Source of the DNA: Candidatus Niyogibacteria bacterium
GTDB taxonomy: Bacteria; Patescibacteriota; Minisyncoccia; HO2-45-28
Reading direction: 5' to 3'
Length of the DNA: 64,000 nucleotides
NCBI GenBank assembly: GCA_016181935.1
Contig: JACOYI010000005.1
Coordinates: 595-64,594 of the forward strand
Shown: positions 963-40,944 of the stretch, in pieces
How positions within the stretch are numbered: the first letter of the stretch is position 1
How the letters are laid out: every line of letters starts with the position of its first letter
Notes under the pieces: model-generated
Database searches by the model: none
What the model was told of the DNA's origin: nothing
The model's input: only the letters and a program-made list of their open reading frames with translations
Translations under genes and position numbers: made by a program

Positions 963-1961
963 ATGCGGTTTGATGTGATCACGATCGGGTCGGCGACCCG
1001 CGATACGTTGGTGAAAAGTAAGGGATTCAAAATAATGGAATCCGGCGATTTTGCGACCGGCAAGGCATTGGCGGTCGAATTGGGGTCAAAAATCGGGGTT
1101 GACGAGGTTTTTTACGGGACGGGAGGCGCCGCCACGAATACGGCCACGACCTTCGCGCGGCAGGGATTCAAAACCGCGTTCATCGCGCGTGTAGGAGATG
1201 ACGTGCTCGGCCGCGCAGTCGCGGATGAAATGGAAAAAGAAGGCGTGGGCGTCGAGTGGCTCCTGCGCGACGCCGGAACGCCGACCGGCTATTCGGTAAT
1301 TTTAGAACATGAATCCGGCGAGCGGACCATTTTGGCATATCGCGGCGCAAATGAGAAATTGCGCCATGAGGACATTCCATGGGGCGACATTCCGTGCGCG
1401 TGGATATATTTGTCGTCGCTTTCGGGCGATCTCGGCATCGCGGAGGCGGCGCTTGAAGGCGCGGGGCGGTGTGGCGCTCGCGTGATCTGGAATCCGGGCG
1501 GGTCGGACCTCGCGCTTGGATTTAGCGCGCTCCAGCCATTTTTGAAGCGCGTGAATGTTTTTATCGTGAATCAGGAGGAGGCCTCAAAACTTTTGGATAT
1601 TCCGTATGATGATGTGAATGCGATCTTTAAAAAATTCGATGACGCGATCGACGGCATTGCGGTGATGACGCGGGGACCCGAAGGGGTGTACGCATCGGAT
1701 GGAACGACGCTTTGGAAAGCTGGTATTTTTCCTGAAAAAAAGGTTGCGGACCGCACGGGCGCAGGGGATGCATTTGGTTCCGGTTTTGTGGCGGGACTCG
1801 CGATTTCGAACGGCGATGTCGCGTATGCGTTGCGGCTTGGCTCCGCGAACGCCACATCCAAAGTCGAACATATGGGAGCAAAAGGCGGCCTGCTGACGCG
1901 ACAGGAATTCGAGGAGGATCCGCGCTGGAAGAATTTGGCGATCGAGGAAACCTCCTTATGA
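963..1961 (+). CDS. PfkB-family carbohydrate kinase (ribokinase/fructokinase/tagatose-6-P kinase-like)
   Basis: 332 aa. N-terminal GG motif region and C-terminal DTxGAGD anion hole (DRTGAGDAFGSGFVAG). Stop overlaps the next start (ATGA). Confidence 0.85.
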   Translation: MRFDVITIGSATRDTLVKSKGFKIMESGDFATGKALAVELGSKIGVDEVFYGTGGAATNTATTFARQGFKTAFIARVGDDVLGRAVADEMEKEGVGVEWLLRDAGTPTGYSVILEHESGERTILAYRGANEKLRHEDIPWGDIPCAWIYLSSLSGDLGIAEAALEGAGRCGARVIWNPGGSDLALGFSALQPFLKRVNVFIVNQEEASKLLDIPYDDVNAIFKKFDDAIDGIAVMTRGPEGVYASDGTTLWKAGIFPEKKVADRTGAGDAFGSGFVAGLAISNGDVAYALRLGSANATSKVEHMGAKGGLLTRQEFEEDPRWKNLAIEETSL

Positions 1962-9794: not shown

Positions 9795-10244
9795 ATGGCG
9801 GATTTTGATATGATTCGTGAGCTCCGGGCTCGGTGCGGCGCATCGATATCGCATTGCAAGAAGGCGCTTGAAGAAACCGGGGGCGATCGGGAAAAGGCGC
9901 TTGAAGTTTTGCGTAAAGAAGGAGCGGATATTGCCGCAAAAAAAGCATCCCGCGCGACGCATGCGGGCGTTGTTGACGCGTATGTGCATGCGGACCGGCG
10001 ATTGGCCGCTCTCGTAAAAGTAAAATGCGAAACGGATTTTGTCGCGCGCAACGACGAATTCCGCGCGTTCGCGCATGACCTTGCGATGCAGGCGGCGGCG
10101 ATGGGGGCGCGAACGTCTGAAGAATTGTTGGAACAGCCGTTCATTAAAGACCCCAAAAAAACCGTACGCGACCTTGTAAAAGAGATCATCGCAAAATTCG
10201 GCGAGAACGTGGAGGTTATTTCCGTGTCGCGCCTTGAGATTTAA
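9795..10244 (+). CDS. tsf: Elongation factor Ts (short form, 149 aa)
   Basis: Directly downstream of rpsB. N-terminal UBA-like ELRARCGASISHCKKALEETGGD and TDFVARN motif. Confidence 0.85.
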   Translation: MADFDMIRELRARCGASISHCKKALEETGGDREKALEVLRKEGADIAAKKASRATHAGVVDAYVHADRRLAALVKVKCETDFVARNDEFRAFAHDLAMQAAAMGARTSEELLEQPFIKDPKKTVRDLVKEIIAKFGENVEVISVSRLEI

Positions 10245-10681
10245 TGTTTATGGAGACGCTCTCTATGTATCTGGCGATCATGGGCGGGGGCATTTTGCTG
10301 GCCGCCGTTCTTGTGGGGCGCTATGTCCCGAGCGTCAAATCGTTATCGGTGCCGGATCAGCGAAAATGGCTGGATCGCCTGCCGCCGTTCCTCGAATTCG
10401 CCGCCGATTTTTGGCAGAACCGGATGCAGCCGCCATTCACGCGGTTTTGGATCCGATACATTCACCCGATCTTTTTGGGGGAAGGAGAAAAGTGGTCGCG
10501 CCGGTCCCGCATCGTGGCGCTCCGGATCGAGCGGATGTTTCACCGGTTGTCGGATTATTTTCGCGGCAAGCGCATCGCGATGCAAGGGAATGGCAGTTCG
10601 GTGGAGGCGGCACAGGGGAAGAATTCCCAGTTTTGGAGCGAGATCCAGCGGCTGAAATCATCGGATGAGAAAAAGAAATAG
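10244..10681 (+). CDS. Hypothetical membrane-anchored protein
   Basis: 145 aa. N-terminal TM (LSMYLAIMGGGILLAAVLVG). Start overlaps the tsf stop (TAATG). Confidence 0.5.
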   Translation: MFMETLSMYLAIMGGGILLAAVLVGRYVPSVKSLSVPDQRKWLDRLPPFLEFAADFWQNRMQPPFTRFWIRYIHPIFLGEGEKWSRRSRIVALRIERMFHRLSDYFRGKRIAMQGNGSSVEAAQGKNSQFWSEIQRLKSSDEKKK

Positions 10682-10686
10682 GAATT

Positions 10687-10882
10687 GCCGCCTTAGCTCA
10701 ATTGGCAGAGCAACACTTTTGCCCGCCCGCCTAAGACGCGCCGTCCTAGCTCAATTGGCAGAGCAACAGTTTTGTAAACTGTAGGTTCCGGGTTCGACCC
10801 CCGGGGACGGCTCAACAATCGGCGCTAAGGCGCGTCGGGCGCGGTAAAGTGAAGGTTCTCGGTTCGACTCCGAGAGGCGGCT
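10687..10882 (+). tRNA. Interrupted tRNA gene: 5' half about 10687-10722 and 3' half about 10843-10882, separated by an insert containing tRNA-Thr(UGU). Anticodon ambiguous (GGU-Thr or UGC-Ala depending on the junction)
   Basis: Acceptor GCCGCCT pairs 7/7 with AGGCGGC 190 nt away. D-arm, anticodon stem (ACACT/AGTGA) and T-arm (CTCGG-TTCGACT-CCGAG) are all present in the two halves. Confidence 0.5.
10740..10812 (+). tRNA. tRNA-Thr (anticodon UGU)
   Basis: Hand-folded cloverleaf: acceptor GCCGTCC/GGACGGC, D-stem GCTC/GAGC, anticodon stem ACAGT/ACTGT, loop TTTGTAA, T-arm CCGGG-TTCGACC-CCCGG. Confidence 0.85.
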
Positions 10883-10894
10883 CTCAAAAAGAAA

Positions 10895-10935
10895 ACCCGA
10901 GCAGTTATGCTCGGGCATTTTGTTCGGCGGTTTTT
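10895..10935 (+). terminator. Rho-independent terminator (CCCGAGCAGTTATGCTCGGG + T-rich)
   Basis: 8-bp stem followed by CATTTTGTTCGGCGGTTTTTTCG. Confidence 0.6.
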
Positions 10936-11043: not shown

Positions 11044-12279
11044 ATGAAGATAATGAAAAAGAAGCGCGTGGTCATCATCGGCGGGGGGTTTGCGGGCGTG
11101 CAGTGCGCGCTGGACCTCGCACGTCACCCCGTTGATCTCGATGTCATTCTCATCGACCGCGACGGATATCATACGTATCACGCCGATTTTTATAAACTCA
11201 TTACATCGGGCCATGGGCCGCTGCATATCCCGCGCGAGAAGTTCCGGCTCGCGTTCTCGACGGTCGCGCTCGAACTCGCCGAAATTTTTGAAGGAAAACC
11301 GAACGTGGAATTGGTGCGGGGGGATGTCGTCGCCGTTCATCCGAGCGCGAATGCGGTGGAATTGGCGGACGGAGAGCGCATCGCATACGATATTTTGGTC
11401 GTGGCCACGGGTTCGGTCACGAATTTTTCGGTTCCCGGACTCCGGACGCGTGCGTTCGAATTGAAATCGCCGGAAGATGCGCTCACTATCCGCAATGCCA
11501 TTGATGAGGTTTTTGCGCGCAAAGCGAAGCACGAAAAAATTTCCATCGTCATCGGCGGCGGCGGATTCTCGGGATGCGAGGCGGCAGGGGAGATCGCGGT
11601 GTGGTTGCCGAAACTCGCGCGTGAACACGGGCAGCCAGCCGGGAACGCCGAGGTGACCATTGTTGAGGGTGCGCCCCAGCTTTTAATGTCGGCGCCCGCG
11701 TGGTTTCGCAAAAAAACCGAGGCGCGGCTTCTGGCGCTCGGCGTGCGGATCATTTTTTCAAATTTTGTTGTCGGCGTCCGCGACGATGCTATTGATTTAA
11801 AAAGCGGGAACGCGGTCTTGTTCGATATTTTGATCTGGACCGCCGGGGTCAGGGCGCATCTCTTGGCCGAGAAAATCACCGGCGCCGCGCTTGCAAAAGG
11901 GAGTTGCATCGTGGTGGACCCGTATTTACGCGTCGGCAATTTCAAGAATATCTTCGCGGTCGGCGATATTGCGTTTTGCAAAGGATTCGGCGATAAACCC
12001 CTGCCGATGCTTGCACAAACGGCGATCTCGCAAGGGCGCTACGCGGCGTACGCGATCCATCGGTTATTTCACGACCGCAAGACATTTCCGTATCATCCGT
12101 ATCGTCCCCAGTTCATTATTCCGCTTGGCGGGCGGTACGCGCTCGCTTATGCAAGGGGGTTTTCATTGGAAGGATGGCTGCCGTGGGTTTTGAAGCGCGC
12201 GGTCGCGCTCAGGTATTTCATGAGTATTTTGCCGTTCGGGAAAGCGCTCCGCGTGTGGTTGCGCGGGGTGCGGATATAA
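11044..12279 (+). CDS. ndh: Type II NADH dehydrogenase (NDH-2) / FAD-dependent pyridine nucleotide-disulfide oxidoreductase
   Basis: 411 aa. Two Rossmann GxGxxG motifs (VVIIGGGFAG; IVIGGGGFSG) and a C-terminal membrane-association helix. Confidence 0.85.
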   Translation: MKIMKKKRVVIIGGGFAGVQCALDLARHPVDLDVILIDRDGYHTYHADFYKLITSGHGPLHIPREKFRLAFSTVALELAEIFEGKPNVELVRGDVVAVHPSANAVELADGERIAYDILVVATGSVTNFSVPGLRTRAFELKSPEDALTIRNAIDEVFARKAKHEKISIVIGGGGFSGCEAAGEIAVWLPKLAREHGQPAGNAEVTIVEGAPQLLMSAPAWFRKKTEARLLALGVRIIFSNFVVGVRDDAIDLKSGNAVLFDILIWTAGVRAHLLAEKITGAALAKGSCIVVDPYLRVGNFKNIFAVGDIAFCKGFGDKPLPMLAQTAISQGRYAAYAIHRLFHDRKTFPYHPYRPQFIIPLGGRYALAYARGFSLEGWLPWVLKRAVALRYFMSILPFGKALRVWLRGVRI

Positions 12280-27574: not shown

Positions 27575-27645
27575 GTAAGATTCGGGGAGTTTAGGTAAGT
27601 GGTATACCTGCTGTCTCCAAAACAGCGATCGGAGGTTCGATTCCT
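27575..27645 (+). tRNA. tRNA-Trp (anticodon CCA)
   Basis: Acceptor GGGAGTT/AACTCCC, D-stem GGTA/TACC, anticodon stem GCTGT/ACAGC with loop CTCCAAA, T-arm GGAGG-TTCGATT-CCTCC, discriminator G. Confidence 0.75.
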
Positions 27646-27680
27646 CCAACTCCCGCCGAAAAAGGTGACGGACGATTCCC

Positions 27681-28667
27681 TCACGAACGGATGTAGTTGG
27701 CGGCCTCGCTCACTTGAAGCGCGGTCGTGGAATTGCCGGTGCGGATATAGAAAATTTCGCCGCGGTCAAAACGGACATAGGCGGGCTTTGCGGCGGGAAG
27801 AATTTGTACGATGCAGATAGGTTTATTGTCCGTTTTGGGGAATGACAATTTCACGAATCGGCGGAATTCGGCGCCGATCATTTCTTTGAATATGTTCGTA
27901 AAATGATTCTCGAATCCGTCCGGATTCGGTTTTTTGAGCGTCGCGTAATCGGGTGCCAACCCGCGGACCGCGCCCGCATCATCCACTCCGATCACCAGAT
28001 GCCCACCGCCCGAATTCAGGAGCGCGGCTGTTGTTTTCATGGCGGCGTGCTCCAGCTCGCGGTTCACCTTGTTCGCACCGAGGTCCCAGCGGAGCGTGGA
28101 TTTGAATTCCAGATTTTCGCGCTCCGGCGTTTTTAAGAGGTCGTCGAGCGAAACCGGCGCCCCCTCGGCGGGCTCCATAGATTCCTCTGCATGGCTTTGC
28201 ATCATTTCGGAAATGACGCGACTATAAAGATCGGGATTCGCGATATGCGTGAGCCGGATGGGTTTTTCCCGGCCCATGGTGCGGATGCCGAGCGTCCCGT
28301 AGGCGAAGATTTGCGATAAGGGCGCATATTCATAAAAAACGGAGACCGGATGCGCGACGGGAATGATCTCCCGCTTTTTGATGATGATGCCGCGTTCCTT
28401 GACGACGGCAGAGGGCCGGATGGTATAGACCGTGTAAAGCCAGCGCAAAAAAATGAATGCAAGAAGAAAAAATTCGGCGACCGCAATGAAGAAGAATTTT
28501 GCGACTTCGTAGGAGATGATATCGGAGACCGAAAGCGTATGGTATAACTCGCCGTAATTAGCGAGGACGGCCGCCAAAAAATAGGCGACCGTCAAAACCA
28601 ACTGCAAAAGAATGAGATCTTTGATGATGACGATGGGGCTTCTTCGGATGAGAATCGGCTCGGTCAT
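27681..28667 (-). CDS. Membrane protein with N-terminal bPH_2 (YdbS/YdbT-like) domain and C-terminal AlbA_2 (Schlafen-like putative nucleic-acid-binding) domain
   Basis: Two N-terminal TM helices plus a PH-like segment. C-terminal NLEFKSTLRWDL...GGGHLVIGVDDAG.VRGL pattern characteristic of AlbA_2/AAA-4 N-terminal modules. Confidence 0.65.
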   Translation of the reverse strand: MTEPILIRRSPIVIIKDLILLQLVLTVAYFLAAVLANYGELYHTLSVSDIISYEVAKFFFIAVAEFFLLAFIFLRWLYTVYTIRPSAVVKERGIIIKKREIIPVAHPVSVFYEYAPLSQIFAYGTLGIRTMGREKPIRLTHIANPDLYSRVISEMMQSHAEESMEPAEGAPVSLDDLLKTPERENLEFKSTLRWDLGANKVNRELEHAAMKTTAALLNSGGGHLVIGVDDAGAVRGLAPDYATLKKPNPDGFENHFTNIFKEMIGAEFRRFVKLSFPKTDNKPICIVQILPAAKPAYVRFDRGEIFYIRTGNSTTALQVSEAANYIRS

Positions 28668-38631: not shown

Positions 38632-39231
38632 CTAGTAAATATAGGTTGTAATGCTTGCTTCTGCAATTTCTTTCATGTGCTCAAAAAGTTCATTTTCCTG
38701 CCATGCGTTTTCTCTGAAAAACATTGATACGGGAGCGTATCCTTCTTTCTTGTGTATAAAAATACGATTCAATGGATAAAATTCATTCATCGTGATAACT
38801 CGATCTCGAATGGATGAACCCTCTGCAAAATCATCGCCCCATCCGAAGCAAACGAATGGCGTGATTTTTTCATATTGAAGTGTGGCTCGGATACCGATAA
38901 GATTTTTTCCCAATCGTTCAATCGCATTTCCTTGCGATTGCTTTTTTAAGCCCTCGGCGATTCGCTTCTTGTTCGTGCCCTGATGTTTCATCTCAACCGC
39001 AAGTGCGATTCTTCGATAGTTTTCATCGTCTTTTTTTCGTAATACCAAAATGCCGCCGTCCGGTTTTATGTAAGAGTCCTCTTTTGAGAGCGGAGAAAAC
39101 TCCGCCCGCTTGTCATATCCTTTGATAATTCCGATCAGTTCCGACAATTTGATGGATTTTACATATTCGAGATAGTAGCCAAGATTCGCAAGGTTAAAAC
39201 GGGTATTGAGATGCTCAATGACCCTTTTCAT
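38632..39231 (-). CDS. Putative Type II restriction endonuclease (PD-(D/E)xK)
   Basis: IKPDGGILVL...EMKHQG fits PD...ExK. Immediately downstream of, and co-directional with, the methyltransferase. Start taken at the internal ATG (MKRVIEHLN). Confidence 0.5.
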   Translation of the reverse strand: MKRVIEHLNTRFNLANLGYYLEYVKSIKLSELIGIIKGYDKRAEFSPLSKEDSYIKPDGGILVLRKKDDENYRRIALAVEMKHQGTNKKRIAEGLKKQSQGNAIERLGKNLIGIRATLQYEKITPFVCFGWGDDFAEGSSIRDRVITMNEFYPLNRIFIHKKEGYAPVSMFFRENAWQENELFEHMKEIAEASITTYIY

Positions 39232-39274
39232 CACCGCCGAAACCTTTTTGTCATCGCCCTTGGAAAGGACGTTT

Positions 39275-39952
39275 TTAGGCAAATGCTGGCTTTTGTTTCG
39301 GCGCAAGAAGTCGCTGTTGCTCATTATGGATATTTTTTACGAAATAATGGCCGCCCAGTTTTGGGATGTTGAAAATCAATACCTCGCTATGAAAGAGGAT
39401 GTTTTCAAAAACATCTTTTGGAAGCGATACGATGCTCGTAATGGGCGGATATTCTTCGTTGATAAATTTCACCCAGCGTTTGCTGTTTTCCGTCTGATTG
39501 AGGCGGAAGCCGTAAGGCGTGAACATCACGATGGGGACTTCACTGCCAAACAATTTCACTGCCTTTGCGAACCACACTTCGGGGAGCAAAGGACGACCGC
39601 CATAATGCTCTTTGATATACTGCTTTGTTTTCGAGTCAATGTTAAAAGGCGGATTCATAATGACGAGCGATATTTTTTCTTTTATCTCGTCCTTTTGAAT
39701 TTCCAAATAATTTTTAACTTTCGTGTTTGGAAAACCCTGATGTTCAATATCAATGCCCATTACTGCATAGCCGTCTTTTTTCCACGGCTTCAAAAGAGAA
39801 CCTTCTCCCACGCACGGATCAATGACGATTCCATCCGATTTTTTGATGTGCGGATGAATCAGATCGTAAAGAAATTCGCTTACATAATCGGGAGTGAAAA
39901 TCGTTGCTTTTTTCTCGTTTTTATAGAAATTGTTCCGATCTACCCGATACAT
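39275..39952 (-). CDS. N6-adenine DNA methyltransferase (gamma-class, NPPF motif)
   Basis: ATG 39952 (MYRVDRNNF); the listed start 39979 is a TTG. Motif I VIDPCVGEGSLL and motif IV VIMNPPFN. Confidence 0.8.
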   Translation of the reverse strand: MYRVDRNNFYKNEKKATIFTPDYVSEFLYDLIHPHIKKSDGIVIDPCVGEGSLLKPWKKDGYAVMGIDIEHQGFPNTKVKNYLEIQKDEIKEKISLVIMNPPFNIDSKTKQYIKEHYGGRPLLPEVWFAKAVKLFGSEVPIVMFTPYGFRLNQTENSKRWVKFINEEYPPITSIVSLPKDVFENILFHSEVLIFNIPKLGGHYFVKNIHNEQQRLLAPKQKPAFA

Positions 39953-40068: not shown

Positions 40069-40944
40069 TCAAACGGGCATCACAGCCCGTCCGAGAATGG
40101 AAGAAAACATCGGGCGCGAAACCAGACGCTGATTCCAGCGATACACGAATTCGTCCACATAACGCTGGAGATACTTCGGGGATACGGCATGGTGCGTCCC
40201 GTCCAGCGACCGCTTGAGTTGCGACCAAAAGCCCTCGATGGTGTTTGTATGTATTTTGCCACGCACATACTCCTTGATGCCGTGTTGGATGGTCTCGTGG
40301 CTGTATCCGTTTGAGCCGACCCGATTGTAGGATTTGAACTCGTCTGTAAAGATTATGCTTTGTTTGCGGACGGATTGCTGGATGATGGGCATGATGGTTT
40401 TACTTTTTACATTCTCAACAACTCGCGCTTTCACATTTCCTTTGCGGGATGCGATACCGAATACGGGCGTTTTGTGTTCTGCCCCGCGTCCGCGCTTGTT
40501 GTGCTTGCCCTTACCGCCGACATAGGTTTCATCCGCTTCCACCTCGCCGTAAAATTTGATGTTATTCTGCTCAAAGAGAAGCCGGATTTGCTGACCCATC
40601 CGCCACGCGCATTTATAGGTCATGCCGAGTTGCCGTTCCAATTCTTTCGCCGCGACACCATTCCGGCTTGAAGCGAACAAGAAGATAGCCCAGAACCAAT
40701 CTTTTAAGGATGTGTCCGATTTGTGGAAGATTGTGCCCGCGAGCGGATGGACGCTAAATCCGCATTGGCAATCGTATCGCTTGCGTCCGGCAATCCGGTG
40801 GAACTTTCCGCGCTTCTTGCACGATGGACAGGCATACCGCTTGCCATAGCGATTCAAAAAGATAGAATGAAGGCAGGCCTCATTGGTCGGGTAATCCCTT
40901 TCGAAATCCTTGCGCGTGTATTTTTTCATACCCCATCCTATCAA
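40069..40944 (-). CDS. IS1595-family (ISXO2-like) DDE transposase
   Basis: 291 aa. N-terminal zinc ribbon (CPSCKK..C), then a DDE core with DETYVGG, TDEFKSY and a C-terminal ISXO2-type region (VNRF). Confidence 0.85.
   Translation of the reverse strand: MIGWGMKKYTRKDFERDYPTNEACLHSIFLNRYGKRYACPSCKKRGKFHRIAGRKRYDCQCGFSVHPLAGTIFHKSDTSLKDWFWAIFLFASSRNGVAAKELERQLGMTYKCAWRMGQQIRLLFEQNNIKFYGEVEADETYVGGKGKHNKRGRGAEHKTPVFGIASRKGNVKARVVENVKSKTIMPIIQQSVRKQSIIFTDEFKSYNRVGSNGYSHETIQHGIKEYVRGKIHTNTIEGFWSQLKRSLDGTHHAVSPKYLQRYVDEFVYRWNQRLVSRPMFSSILGRAVMPV

What the first reader, a model, noticed from the sequence alone, without database searches (positions are those of the whole stretch)
10687..10882. A tRNA gene split in its anticodon loop by a ~120-bp insert that carries a complete tRNA-Thr(UGU)
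The 5' half (GCCGCCT-TA-GCTC-AATTGGCA-GAGC-A-ACACT-TTTGCCC, 10687-10724) and the 3' half (GCGGTAA-AGTGA-AGGTT-CTCGG-TTCGACT-CCGAG-AGGCGGC-T, 10841-10882) lie 120 bp apart, yet the acceptor stem pairs 7/7 across that distance. Anticodon stem and T-arm are intact. Between them sits a canonical tRNA-Thr(UGU) (10740-10812) that is a close paralogue of the outer gene. The two differ by compensatory substitutions in the acceptor, anticodon and T stems, so both appear to be under structural selection. The insert flanks (GCCCGCCCGCCTAAGACGC and GGCGCTAAGGCGCGTCGGGCGCG) are partly complementary and could clamp the halves together. The insert is far too short for a bacterial group I intron, and bacteria lack the archaeal BHB splicing endonuclease. 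Possible readings: a nested/split tRNA matured by RNase P/RNase Z release of the inner tRNA, a novel intron type, or a tRNA pseudogene created by insertion of a duplicated tRNA. The outer anticodon would be GGU (Thr) if the junction is TT|GGTAA, or UGC (Ala) if the 5' exon runs to TTTGCC.
Basis: seen in the sequence. Interest (0 to 1): 0.85.

Follow-up and report, generated by a model that had tools for sequence, protein, structure and literature searches.

The report
tRNA cassette inserted inside cognate tRNA
A 123-base hairpin-flanked cassette carrying its own threonine tRNA sits exactly inside the anticodon of the resident threonine tRNA gene, and similar cassettes recur, sometimes stacked three deep, in many uncultivated bacteria, which points to an undescribed way of replacing tRNA genes.

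Summary
Window 10687-10721 and 10845-10882 are the two halves of a tRNA-Thr(UGU) gene. Joined, they are 73/73 identical to the uninterrupted tRNA at the same syntenic site in a related Ca. Niyogibacteria genome (L258). The 123 nt between them (10722-10844) are therefore an insertion between G35 and U36, with no target duplication. The insert is a GC-rich arm (CCCGCCCGCC...), a canonical tRNA-Thr(UGU) (10740-10812), and a partly complementary arm (...GGGCGCGG).

It is not unique. I found about 25 nested loci, mostly in CPR/Patescibacteria. Many share the same termini, CCCGCCYGCC...GGCGGGCAGG. The inner tRNA always has the anticodon of the gene it splits (Thr, Trp, Gly, Ala, Val, Ile, Lys, His). 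Five of seven lineages at this syntenic site are uninterrupted, and two carry different cassettes. Three loci are three-level "Russian dolls" whose outer shells are progressively decayed.

It is not a group I intron, has no bulge-helix-bulge (BHB) motif, matches no Rfam family, and has no linked protein gene.

Best reading: a non-autonomous mobile tRNA cassette that inactivates and functionally replaces the resident cognate tRNA. Splicing of the outer gene is not excluded. The insertion machinery is unknown. I found no description of it in the searchable literature.

The parts
10687..10721 (+). 5' half of the resident (outer) tRNA-Thr(UGU): acceptor 5' strand, D arm, anticodon-stem 5' strand, and loop nucleotides 32-35 (UUUG)
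   Evidence: Identical to nucleotides 1-35 of the intact orthologous tRNA in L258. Sequence.
10722..10739 (+). 5' arm (x) of the cassette: CCCGCCCGCCTAAGACGC, made of tandem CCYG units followed by GCCTAAG
   Evidence: Absent from the intact orthologue. The same start, CCCGCC(Y)GCC, is seen in L061, L105, L107, L210, L237, L091 and L155. It pairs with 10813-10844 in the MFE fold.
10740..10812 (+). Inner (cargo) tRNA-Thr(UGU), canonical, with no encoded CCA
   Evidence: ARAGORN. Rfam RF00005 scores 67.2 bits. It is 84% identical to the resident tRNA.
10813..10844 (+). 3' arm (y) of the cassette: CAACAATCGGCGCTAAGGCGCGTCGGGCGCGG
   Evidence: Absent from the intact orthologue. It pairs with x. It is the family counterpart of ...GGCGGGCAGG.
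10845..10882 (+). 3' half of the resident (outer) tRNA-Thr(UGU): U36 A37 A38, anticodon-stem 3' strand, variable loop, T arm, acceptor 3' strand, and discriminator
   Evidence: Identical to nucleotides 36-73 of the intact orthologous tRNA in L258.
10896..10927 (+). Intrinsic-terminator-like hairpin and T run that closes the transcription unit
   Evidence: No promoter-like site lies inside the cassette. L258 has a terminator at the equivalent position.

Best explanation
Window 10722-10844 is a small, non-autonomous, hairpin-flanked tRNA cassette of the form x arm - tRNA - y arm. It has been inserted precisely between nucleotides 35 and 36 of the resident tRNA-Thr(UGU) gene.

Proposed mechanism (inferred):
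1. The whole unit is transcribed from the resident gene's promoter to the terminator at about 10896-10927.
2. The x and y arms zip up and extend the outer anticodon stem into a rod. This presents the inner tRNA as an independent cloverleaf.
3. RNase P and a 3' processing nuclease release the inner tRNA, and CCA is added.
4. The inner tRNA then serves as the cell's tRNA-Thr(UGU).
5. The split resident gene is not rejoined. It is a pseudogene in waiting that decays over time.

Because the insertion destroys a normally single-copy essential tRNA, only cassettes whose cargo has the same anticodon survive. The cargo then becomes indispensable. The new inner tRNA again offers an intact target, so later cassettes insert into it and produce nested 'Russian dolls'.

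Shown: the insertion, the family, the cognate rule, decay of outer copies, and serial nesting.

Inferred: the RNA processing, the lack of splicing, and mobility as a discrete element. The enzyme that inserts the cassette is unknown.
For: 1. Empty versus filled site. The joined halves equal the intact tRNA at the syntenic locus of L258, 73/73. The site is also uninterrupted in L261, L270, L271 and L272. It carries a different cassette in L262-L264, where the outer copy belongs to the resident lineage of L270/L271 and has lost about 11 nt.

2. Recurrent family with shared termini. CCCGCCYGCC...GGCGGGCAGG occurs in L061, L105, L107, L210, L237, L091 and L155, with variants in L064, L055, L098, L104, L031 and L119. 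There is no target duplication, only 0-1 nt of ambiguity.

3. Cognate rule without exception. This holds for Thr, Trp, Gly, Ala, Val, Ile, Lys and His. It also holds for the hits to the second search pattern, which placed no requirement on the cargo.

4. Empty shells. They are seen only in dead tRNA fragments or intergenic DNA: L081, L082, L084 and L220.

5. Outer copies decay in older nests. Examples are L262, L064, L055, L103, L115/L117, L049 and L031.

6. Three-level nests. L237, L055 and L104 show an outermost copy that is the most decayed and an innermost copy that is the only one scored by Rfam.

7. Expression and autonomy. There is no promoter inside the cassette and a terminator follows the outer 3' half. 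No protein gene is shared next to the loci beyond synteny.

8. Independent assemblies. Three separate assemblies give the identical nested locus, L262-L264.
Against: - No transposase, recombinase or nuclease could be tied to the cassettes, and no two identical cassettes were found in different hosts. Mobility is therefore inferred from phylogenetic distribution only.
- The window's outer halves, and those of L061, L105, L107, L210, L237 (level 2) and L091, are perfectly intact. Intactness is also what a spliced, functional gene would show.
- The strong preference for the anticodon loop, and the conserved stem that brings the two halves together, are typical of introns.
- In some loci the inner and outer tRNAs are nearly identical (L091 96%, L099, L092). 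This fits local duplication or gene conversion better than import of a foreign cargo.
- There are no RNA data.
Confidence: 0.55

Rival explanations
1. A new kind of bacterial tRNA intron. The x-tRNA-y segment is excised at the base of the rod by an unknown protein or ribozyme activity, and the exons are ligated. One transcript would then yield two functional tRNA-Thr(UGU) molecules.
For: - The insertion lies precisely in the anticodon loop at 34/35, 35/36 or 37/38, as for known tRNA introns.
- In-silico splicing gives canonical 73-nt tRNAs that ARAGORN accepts.
- Seven family members have fully intact outer stems, 7/7 in the acceptor, while non-cognate half pairings average 4.1/7.
- The first and last intron nucleotides pair, so both junctions sit at the base of one helix.
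- Patescibacteria are already known to be rich in tRNA introns, including some at 35/36 (PMC13011429).
Against: - No group I core or other ribozyme was detected, and there is no BHB geometry.
- The cargo is always cognate, and empty shells occur only in dead fragments. Neither is expected if splicing restored the host gene.
- Outer genes decay in many lineages and in the outer layers of three-level nests.
- The outer and inner tRNAs are redundant in anticodon.
- No splicing endonuclease or RtcB was found among the roughly 50 window ORFs scanned. This covers only 64 kb of the genome.
Confidence: 0.17
2. There is no dedicated element. The nests are by-products of recombination, repair or gene conversion between tRNA paralogues or incoming homologous DNA in naturally competent, recombination-prone CPR genomes. 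The GC-rich palindromes are generic small repeats that accumulate in neutral DNA.
For: - Inner tRNAs do not form a clade of their own. They look like ordinary resident tRNAs of the same group.
- The L091 inner tRNA is 96% identical to its outer copy and 91% identical to a Bacteroidota tRNA, L085.
- In the Ile(UAU) loci the inner and outer copies differ only in the acceptor stem.
- L099 carries tandem identical 5' halves.
- Nests with unrelated shells and other breakpoints exist: L025, L030, L042, L081 and L082.
- Empty palindromes occur on their own.
Against: - The same 10 + 10-nt termini and the extended x motif (CCYGCCYGCC..GCCTAAG) recur across hosts, tRNA types and even phyla.
- The breakpoints are exact, with no loss or duplication of host nucleotides.
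- Serial nesting always goes into the intact innermost anticodon.
- The window's inner tRNA differs from the resident at 12 positions, while the resident is unchanged.
Confidence: 0.2
3. Assembly artefact: a chimeric join of two strain variants of the tRNA-Thr locus in a metagenome-assembled genome.
For: The window comes from a MAG, and read-level support could not be checked.
Against: - The arm sequences belong to neither tRNA allele and recur in many independent assemblies built with different assemblers.
- Three separate assemblies give the identical nested locus L262-L264.
- The junctions are exact to the nucleotide relative to the intact orthologue.
Confidence: 0.02

Closest known systems
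Group I introns at position 35/36 (and 33/34, 36/37) of Patescibacteria tRNA genes (Nakagawa et al. 2026, PMC13011429; Williams 2020, bioRxiv 10.1101/2020.01.27.920355)
   Same: Same host group, and the same unusual insertion point inside the anticodon (35/36). Standard tRNA finders miss the interrupted gene. There is no target duplication.
   Different: Those introns are 184-894 nt long, have a ribozyme core that covariance models detect, follow a U(-1)/G(omega) rule, and self-splice in vitro. The insert here is 123 nt with no core. In CGU hosts the -1 nucleotide is G35 or C34. About 60% of the insert is a complete cognate tRNA.
Integrative elements (phages, ICEs, islands) that integrate into tRNA genes and carry a replacement copy of the displaced tRNA segment (own knowledge: Williams 2002, NAR 30:866)
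   Same: The logic is the same. A mobile DNA targets a tRNA gene, often at the anticodon loop, and brings the sequence needed to keep tRNA function.
   Different: Those elements are kilobases long and encode an integrase. They replace only the 3' part and leave a direct repeat of that part at the far end. Here the element is about 100-130 bp and carries a whole tRNA. There is no repeat and no integrase.
Archaeal BHB introns, split and tri-split tRNA genes, and tRNA-intron transposition in Thermoproteales (own knowledge: Randau 2005; Fujishima 2009, 2010)
   Same: tRNA halves are brought together by complementary flanking sequence. Related intervening sequences appear in different tRNAs.
   Different: These need a bulge-helix-bulge motif and the archaeal splicing endonuclease. 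Neither the motif nor the domain of life fits. No archaeal intron is known to hold a complete cognate tRNA.
Palindromic miniature insertion elements that land inside functional genes (Rickettsia palindromic elements, REP/BIME and IS200/IS605-derived PATEs) (own knowledge)
   Same: They are small, non-coding and hairpin-forming, and are mobilised in trans. REPs and PATEs have a conserved tetranucleotide next to a hairpin and make no target duplication. This resembles the CCCG + stem arrangement seen here.
   Different: None is known to carry a tRNA gene, to target the anticodon of the cognate tRNA, or to nest serially. No Y1/RAYT transposase was found here (searches cover only part of one genome).

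Membership tests
Group I intron | Conserved catalytic core (P3-P9) detectable by RF00028; length of about 180 nt or more | tested here: not met
   No RF00028 match at the gathering threshold or at E<=10 over 10640-10930. The insert is 123 nt, of which 73 are a tRNA. RF00028 does detect a real intron elsewhere in a family locus (L237 2529-2952), so the model works in these genomes.
Group I intron | U (rarely C) at -1 forming a U.G pair in P1; G at the intron 3' end | tested here: inconclusive
   The last nucleotide is G in all members. The -1 nucleotide is G35, or with the 1-nt shift U34 in UGU hosts and C34 in CGU hosts. No P1 pairing with an internal guide is evident.
Archaeal/eukaryal BHB tRNA intron | Two 3-nt bulges separated by a 4-bp helix that carry the two splice sites | tested here: not met
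   In the folds, both junctions lie at the base of one continuous helix (x1 pairs with the last y nucleotide). They are flanked by a 4 x 3-nt internal loop.
Archaeal/eukaryal BHB tRNA intron | Genome encodes an EndA-type splicing endonuclease and an RNA ligase (RtcB) | tested here: inconclusive
   Neither was found among about 50 window ORFs scanned against Pfam. The window is only 64 kb of the genome.
tRNA-targeting integrative element (tyrosine integrase) | Integrase gene plus a direct repeat of the tRNA segment (attL/attR) flanking kilobases of cargo | tested here: not met
   The insert is 123 nt with no ORF. No host nucleotide is duplicated or lost relative to the intact orthologue. No shared neighbouring gene was found.
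MITE / DDE-transposon derivative | Terminal inverted repeats | tested here: met
   x1-10 and the last 10 nt of y are complementary at 8-9 of 10 positions in L061, L107, L237 and L091. The match is weaker in the window.
MITE / DDE-transposon derivative | Target-site duplication of fixed length | tested here: not met
   Comparison of the empty site (L258) with the filled site (window) shows 0 nt duplicated, with 1 nt ambiguous. The same holds in the other class-A members.
MITE / DDE-transposon derivative | Many copies per genome and a cognate transposase | tested here: inconclusive
   There is one copy in the 64-kb window. The only transposase seen is IS1595-type, at 40069-40944, and its ends are unrelated.
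REP / IS200-IS605 PATE | Conserved tetranucleotide next to an imperfect hairpin, no target duplication, Y1 (HUH) transposase in trans | tested here: inconclusive
   CCCG followed by a co-varying stem and no duplication are seen. No Y1 or RAYT gene was found in the window. In real PATEs the two ends do not pair with each other.
tRNA pseudogene created by insertion | An uninterrupted orthologue exists, and interrupted copies accumulate defects | tested here: met
   Five lineages carry an intact orthologue. Decay is seen in L262, L064, L055, L103, L115 and L117, and in the outer layers of L237, L055 and L104. The window copy itself shows no defect yet.
Bacterial Y RNA (tRNA-like module on a stem) | Match to RF01053 or related models at the gathering score | tested here: not met
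   The score is 15.1 bits against a gathering score of 80, with E = 3.9.

The most novel reading that the evidence does not exclude
A previously unrecognised class of mobile genetic element. It is a roughly 100-130-bp hairpin-shelled cassette that carries a tRNA gene. It inserts without target duplication into the middle of the anticodon of the cognate resident tRNA gene, kills that gene, and makes itself indispensable. It is then overwritten by the next cassette, which leaves Russian-doll tRNA fossils. Insertion would depend on an unknown structure-specific activity that recognises tDNA or tRNA anticodon stem-loops. A variant of this reading is that the shell is a new protein-dependent bacterial tRNA intron.
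Probability: 0.5. Interest if true: 0.9.

Novelty: categorically new. Interest (0 to 1): 0.82.

Why it matters
If correct, this is a new way for a selfish element to persist. It replaces an essential single-copy gene with its own copy instead of carrying a toxin or a transposase. It would also be a new route of tRNA gene turnover and horizontal replacement in the most genome-reduced bacteria.

It implies an enzyme activity that cuts and joins nucleic acid in the middle of an anticodon loop. That activity has not been identified and could be useful as a tool.

There are practical consequences too. The outer genes are invisible to tRNAscan, ARAGORN and Rfam, and the decayed layers mimic tRNA fragments, so tRNA counts and completeness estimates for CPR genomes are affected.

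The finding also makes a long-standing question testable in bacteria: how intervening sequences enter tRNA anticodon loops, and whether non-ribozyme tRNA introns exist outside archaea and eukaryotes.

Tried and rejected
- Rfam at E<=10 gave only the inner tRNA plus noise. That noise included a non-significant Deinococcus Y RNA match spanning the insert.
- The metagenome scan with TTGGYAGAGCN{10,11}CCGCCYG returned mostly chance matches in coding DNA. Only L155, L210, L220 and L237 were useful.
- Three IMG/VR scans found shell-like GC hairpins at about the chance rate, and none lay next to a tRNA. There is therefore no phage link.
- Four pattern calls failed on syntax.
- An exact-protein look-up of the upstream ORF found nothing.
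- All-against-all BLASTP of ORFs within 4 kb of 19 loci found only syntenic housekeeping genes.
- The HNH gene next to the intact orthologue has no homologue near any other locus.
- No near-identical cassette was found in two different hosts.
- The Pfam scan of the window found no RtcB, EndA, Y1 transposase, RAYT or TnpB.
- The ends of the IS1595 copy are unrelated to the shell.
- BHB, RNase III-type staggered cuts, RNase P/Z cleavage at the exon junctions, tyrosine- or serine-recombinase crossover, and Helitron, IS91 or IS605 target rules were each compared with the junction geometry. None fits.
- Eight literature searches, including the shell sequence itself, found no description of nested tRNA genes.
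- Most non-CPR hits from the first genome scan are 3'-truncated tRNA copies or scaffolding duplications. They are a different phenomenon.

Full report
**The observation**

The region reads: GCCGCCT TA GCTC AATTGGCA GAGC A ACACT TTTG | CCCGCCCGCCTAAGACGC | inner tRNA | CAACAATCGGCGCTAAGGCGCGTCGGGCGCGG | TAA AGTGA AGGTT CTCGG TTCGACT CCGAG AGGCGGC T.

- ARAGORN and Rfam see only the inner tRNA-Thr(UGU), at 10740-10812 with 67 bits.
- ARAGORN does not call the outer gene even when introns are allowed.
- The outer halves pair 7/7 in the acceptor stem, 5/5 in the T stem and 4/5 in the anticodon stem.
- The 196-nt RNA folds into two nested cloverleaves joined by a rod. The energy is -87.6 kcal/mol, z = -3.98, and no shuffle out of 200 folds as well.

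**Organism and context**

The downstream gene (11044-12279) is 100% identical to a protein of a Candidatus Niyogibacteria MAG, which belongs to Parcubacteria (CPR). The neighbourhood is prfA - rpmE - rpsB - a short tsf - a hypothetical ORF - this tRNA locus - an ndh-like gene - clpP - sufCBD.

**Empty site versus filled site**

Synteny is conserved in seven related lineages that I fetched through homologues of the ndh-like protein.

- The closest lineage is L258 (82% amino-acid identity). It has an uninterrupted tRNA-Thr(UGU) at that position, and its sequence is 73/73 identical to window 10687-10721 + 10845-10882.
- The 123 nt at 10722-10844 are therefore an insertion between G35 and U36. One G is ambiguous. 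No host nucleotide was duplicated or lost.
- The outer anticodon is UGU. The A27xA43 mismatch is native to this tRNA.
- L261, L270, L271 and L272 also have uninterrupted genes.
- L262, L263 and L264 come from three independent assemblies of one species. They carry a different cassette at the same place. Its outer 3' half belongs to the resident lineage seen intact in L270 and L271. Its outer 5' half has lost about 11 nt.
- Gain by insertion, at least twice at this one locus, is the parsimonious reading.

**A family**

I scanned one genome per species for two identical D arms spaced too closely to belong to tandem genes. I then scanned for a D arm followed at the right distance by CCGCCYG. Together these gave about 25 nested loci.

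*Class A* shares these termini: exon ...N34 N35 | CCCGCCYGCC ... [tRNA] ... GGCGGGCAGG | N36 ...

| tRNA type | Loci |
|---|---|
| Thr(CGU) | L061, L105, L107, L210; decayed: L064, L055 |
| Thr(UGU) | window, L237, L262, L099, L119 |
| Trp | L091 (insertion at 34/35) |
| Gly(CCC) | L155 |
| Ala | L098, L104 |
| Val | L031 |

- The x arm is built of tandem CCYG units and y of CRGG units.
- In several members x continues with GCCTAAG (window, L237 twice, L061), which suggests common descent.
- The first and last nucleotides of the insert pair with each other. In the main group the 10-bp terminal helix has a conserved CxA mismatch and a U.G pair.
- In other members the stem sequence is different but still complementary (L055 15 bp, L064 12 bp, L042).
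- Nests with other shells and breakpoints also exist: L025, L030, L049, L081, L082 and the Ile(UAU) loci L002, L103, L092, L115 and L117.
- Most hosts are labelled Patescibacteria or Saccharibacteria.
- L091 sits next to secE-nusG-rplKAJ on a contig of an Ignavibacteriales MAG, and its tRNA resembles a Bacteroidota tRNA.

**Rules that emerge**

- *The inner tRNA always has the anticodon of the gene it interrupts.* This also holds for the hits to the second pattern, which put no condition on the cargo.
- *Shells without a tRNA occur only in already dead fragments or between genes.* Examples are L081 5167-5186, L082 6625-6643, L084 and L220.
- *Outer genes range from perfect to badly decayed.* Perfect: window, L061, L105, L107, L210, L237 level 2, L091. 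Decayed: L262, L064, L055, L103, L115, L117, L049, L031.
- *Three loci have three levels: L237, L055 and L104.* The outermost copy retains little more than the anticodon arm next to its shell. The middle copy is split by a second shell. Only the innermost is a tRNA by Rfam.
- *Inner tRNAs do not form a lineage of their own.* The tRNA type that is outer in one genome can be inner in another.

**What it is not**

- No Rfam family other than tRNA matches the cassettes.
- There is no group I core. The same model does find a real group I intron elsewhere in L237.
- There is no BHB. Both junctions sit at the base of one helix with a 4 x 3 internal loop.
- There is no ORF, integrase, att duplication or target-site duplication.
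- No gene is shared among the loci beyond synteny.
- No phage association was found.
- No relevant enzyme was found in the part of the window proteome I scanned.
- It is not an assembly artefact. The arms belong to neither tRNA, the same architecture appears in many assemblies, and L262-L264 are identical.

**Interpretation**

The cognate rule, the absence of empty or non-cognate shells in live genes, the decay of outer copies and the serial nesting are all expected under one model. In that model the insertion inactivates the host gene and the cargo takes over its function. None of them is expected if the intervening sequence were efficiently spliced.

I therefore favour a non-autonomous mobile tRNA cassette that replaces the resident gene (confidence 0.55). 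Expression would come from the resident promoter, since there is no promoter inside the cassette and a terminator lies at 10896-10927. The inner tRNA would be released by RNase P and 3' processing. These steps are inferred.

Three arguments keep the intron reading alive (0.17): the exact anticodon-loop position, the conserved clamp that juxtaposes the halves, and the pristine outer genes in about half of the class-A loci.

A third reading has no dedicated element, only recombination or gene conversion plus generic palindromes (0.20). Loci where inner and outer are nearly identical support it (L091, L099, L092). The shared termini across tRNA types and phyla, and the nucleotide-exact junctions, argue against it.

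How the cassette is inserted is unknown. I compared the junctions with the rules of tyrosine and serine recombinases, IS200/IS605, IS91, Helitrons, DDE transposons, RNase III and RNase P/Z, and none fits. The closest formal resemblance is to REP/PATE-like elements, which have a conserved tetranucleotide plus a hairpin and make no duplication.

**Literature**

The searchable library describes group I introns in Patescibacteria tRNAs, including at 35/36. [quoted passage not shown] Eight searches found nothing on tRNA genes nested in tRNA genes.

**Verdict**

The feature is real and recurrent, and as far as I can tell undescribed. Its biology (mobile replacement cassette versus novel intron) can be decided by a single small-RNA experiment.

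Noticed in passing
L258 2440-2868 (orthologous locus of the relative GCA_016177385.1): A free-standing 142-aa HNH endonuclease gene ends 5 nt upstream of the intact tRNA-Thr(UGU). It is absent from the window and from all other fetched loci. A second, different mobile-type insertion at the same tRNA suggests the locus is a hot spot, or that tRNA-directed homing endonucleases play a part in this system.
   Followed up: partly
L237 6820-7070 (- strand); L055 4640-4900 (- strand); L104 about 1500-1800 (- strand): Three-level nested tRNA genes. The outermost copy is decayed, the middle copy is split, and the innermost is functional. Each level is bounded by a GC-rich shell.
   Followed up: yes
L081 5167-5186; L082 6625-6643: Stand-alone 19-20-nt 'empty shells' (CCCGCCTGCCGGCGGGCAGG). 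One lies inside the T stem of a dead tRNA fragment. The other lies just downstream of a nested tRNA pair.
   Followed up: partly
window 27681-28667 (-): An ORF with Schlafen AlbA_2 and bacterial PH domains lies immediately downstream of tRNA-Trp (27585-27657).
   Followed up: no
window 40069-40944 (-) and 38632-39324 (-): An IS1595-family DDE transposase gene and an EcoRI-like restriction endonuclease fragment. The ends of the IS are unrelated to the cassette arms.
   Followed up: partly
L237 3744-6386 and 2529-2952: The 16S rRNA gene spans 2643 nt against a 1533-nt model, so it carries large insertions. A group I intron (RF00028, 73.5 bits) lies nearby. Both are typical CPR features, next to the nested tRNA.
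   Followed up: no
L020 1112-1778; L063 6979-7185 (Chitinophagaceae): Tandem arrays of 67-nt truncated pseudo-tRNA units lie directly upstream of a complete tRNA. This repeat phenomenon differs from the nested cassettes.
   Followed up: no
L004, L012, L013, L033, L046, L069, L074, L097 and other non-CPR loci: A 3'-truncated tRNA copy (broken in or after the T arm) is followed by a full copy. Several contain N runs, which suggests scaffolding duplications or integrase scars. They are not part of the family.
   Followed up: partly
L254 8115-8274 (IMG/VR contig): A tRNA-like gene has an insert of about 85 nt in the anticodon region and no inner tRNA. Its nature was not determined.
   Followed up: no
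window 9795-10244: EF-Ts is only 149 aa, the short form seen across the syntenic CPR relatives (138-149 aa).
   Followed up: no
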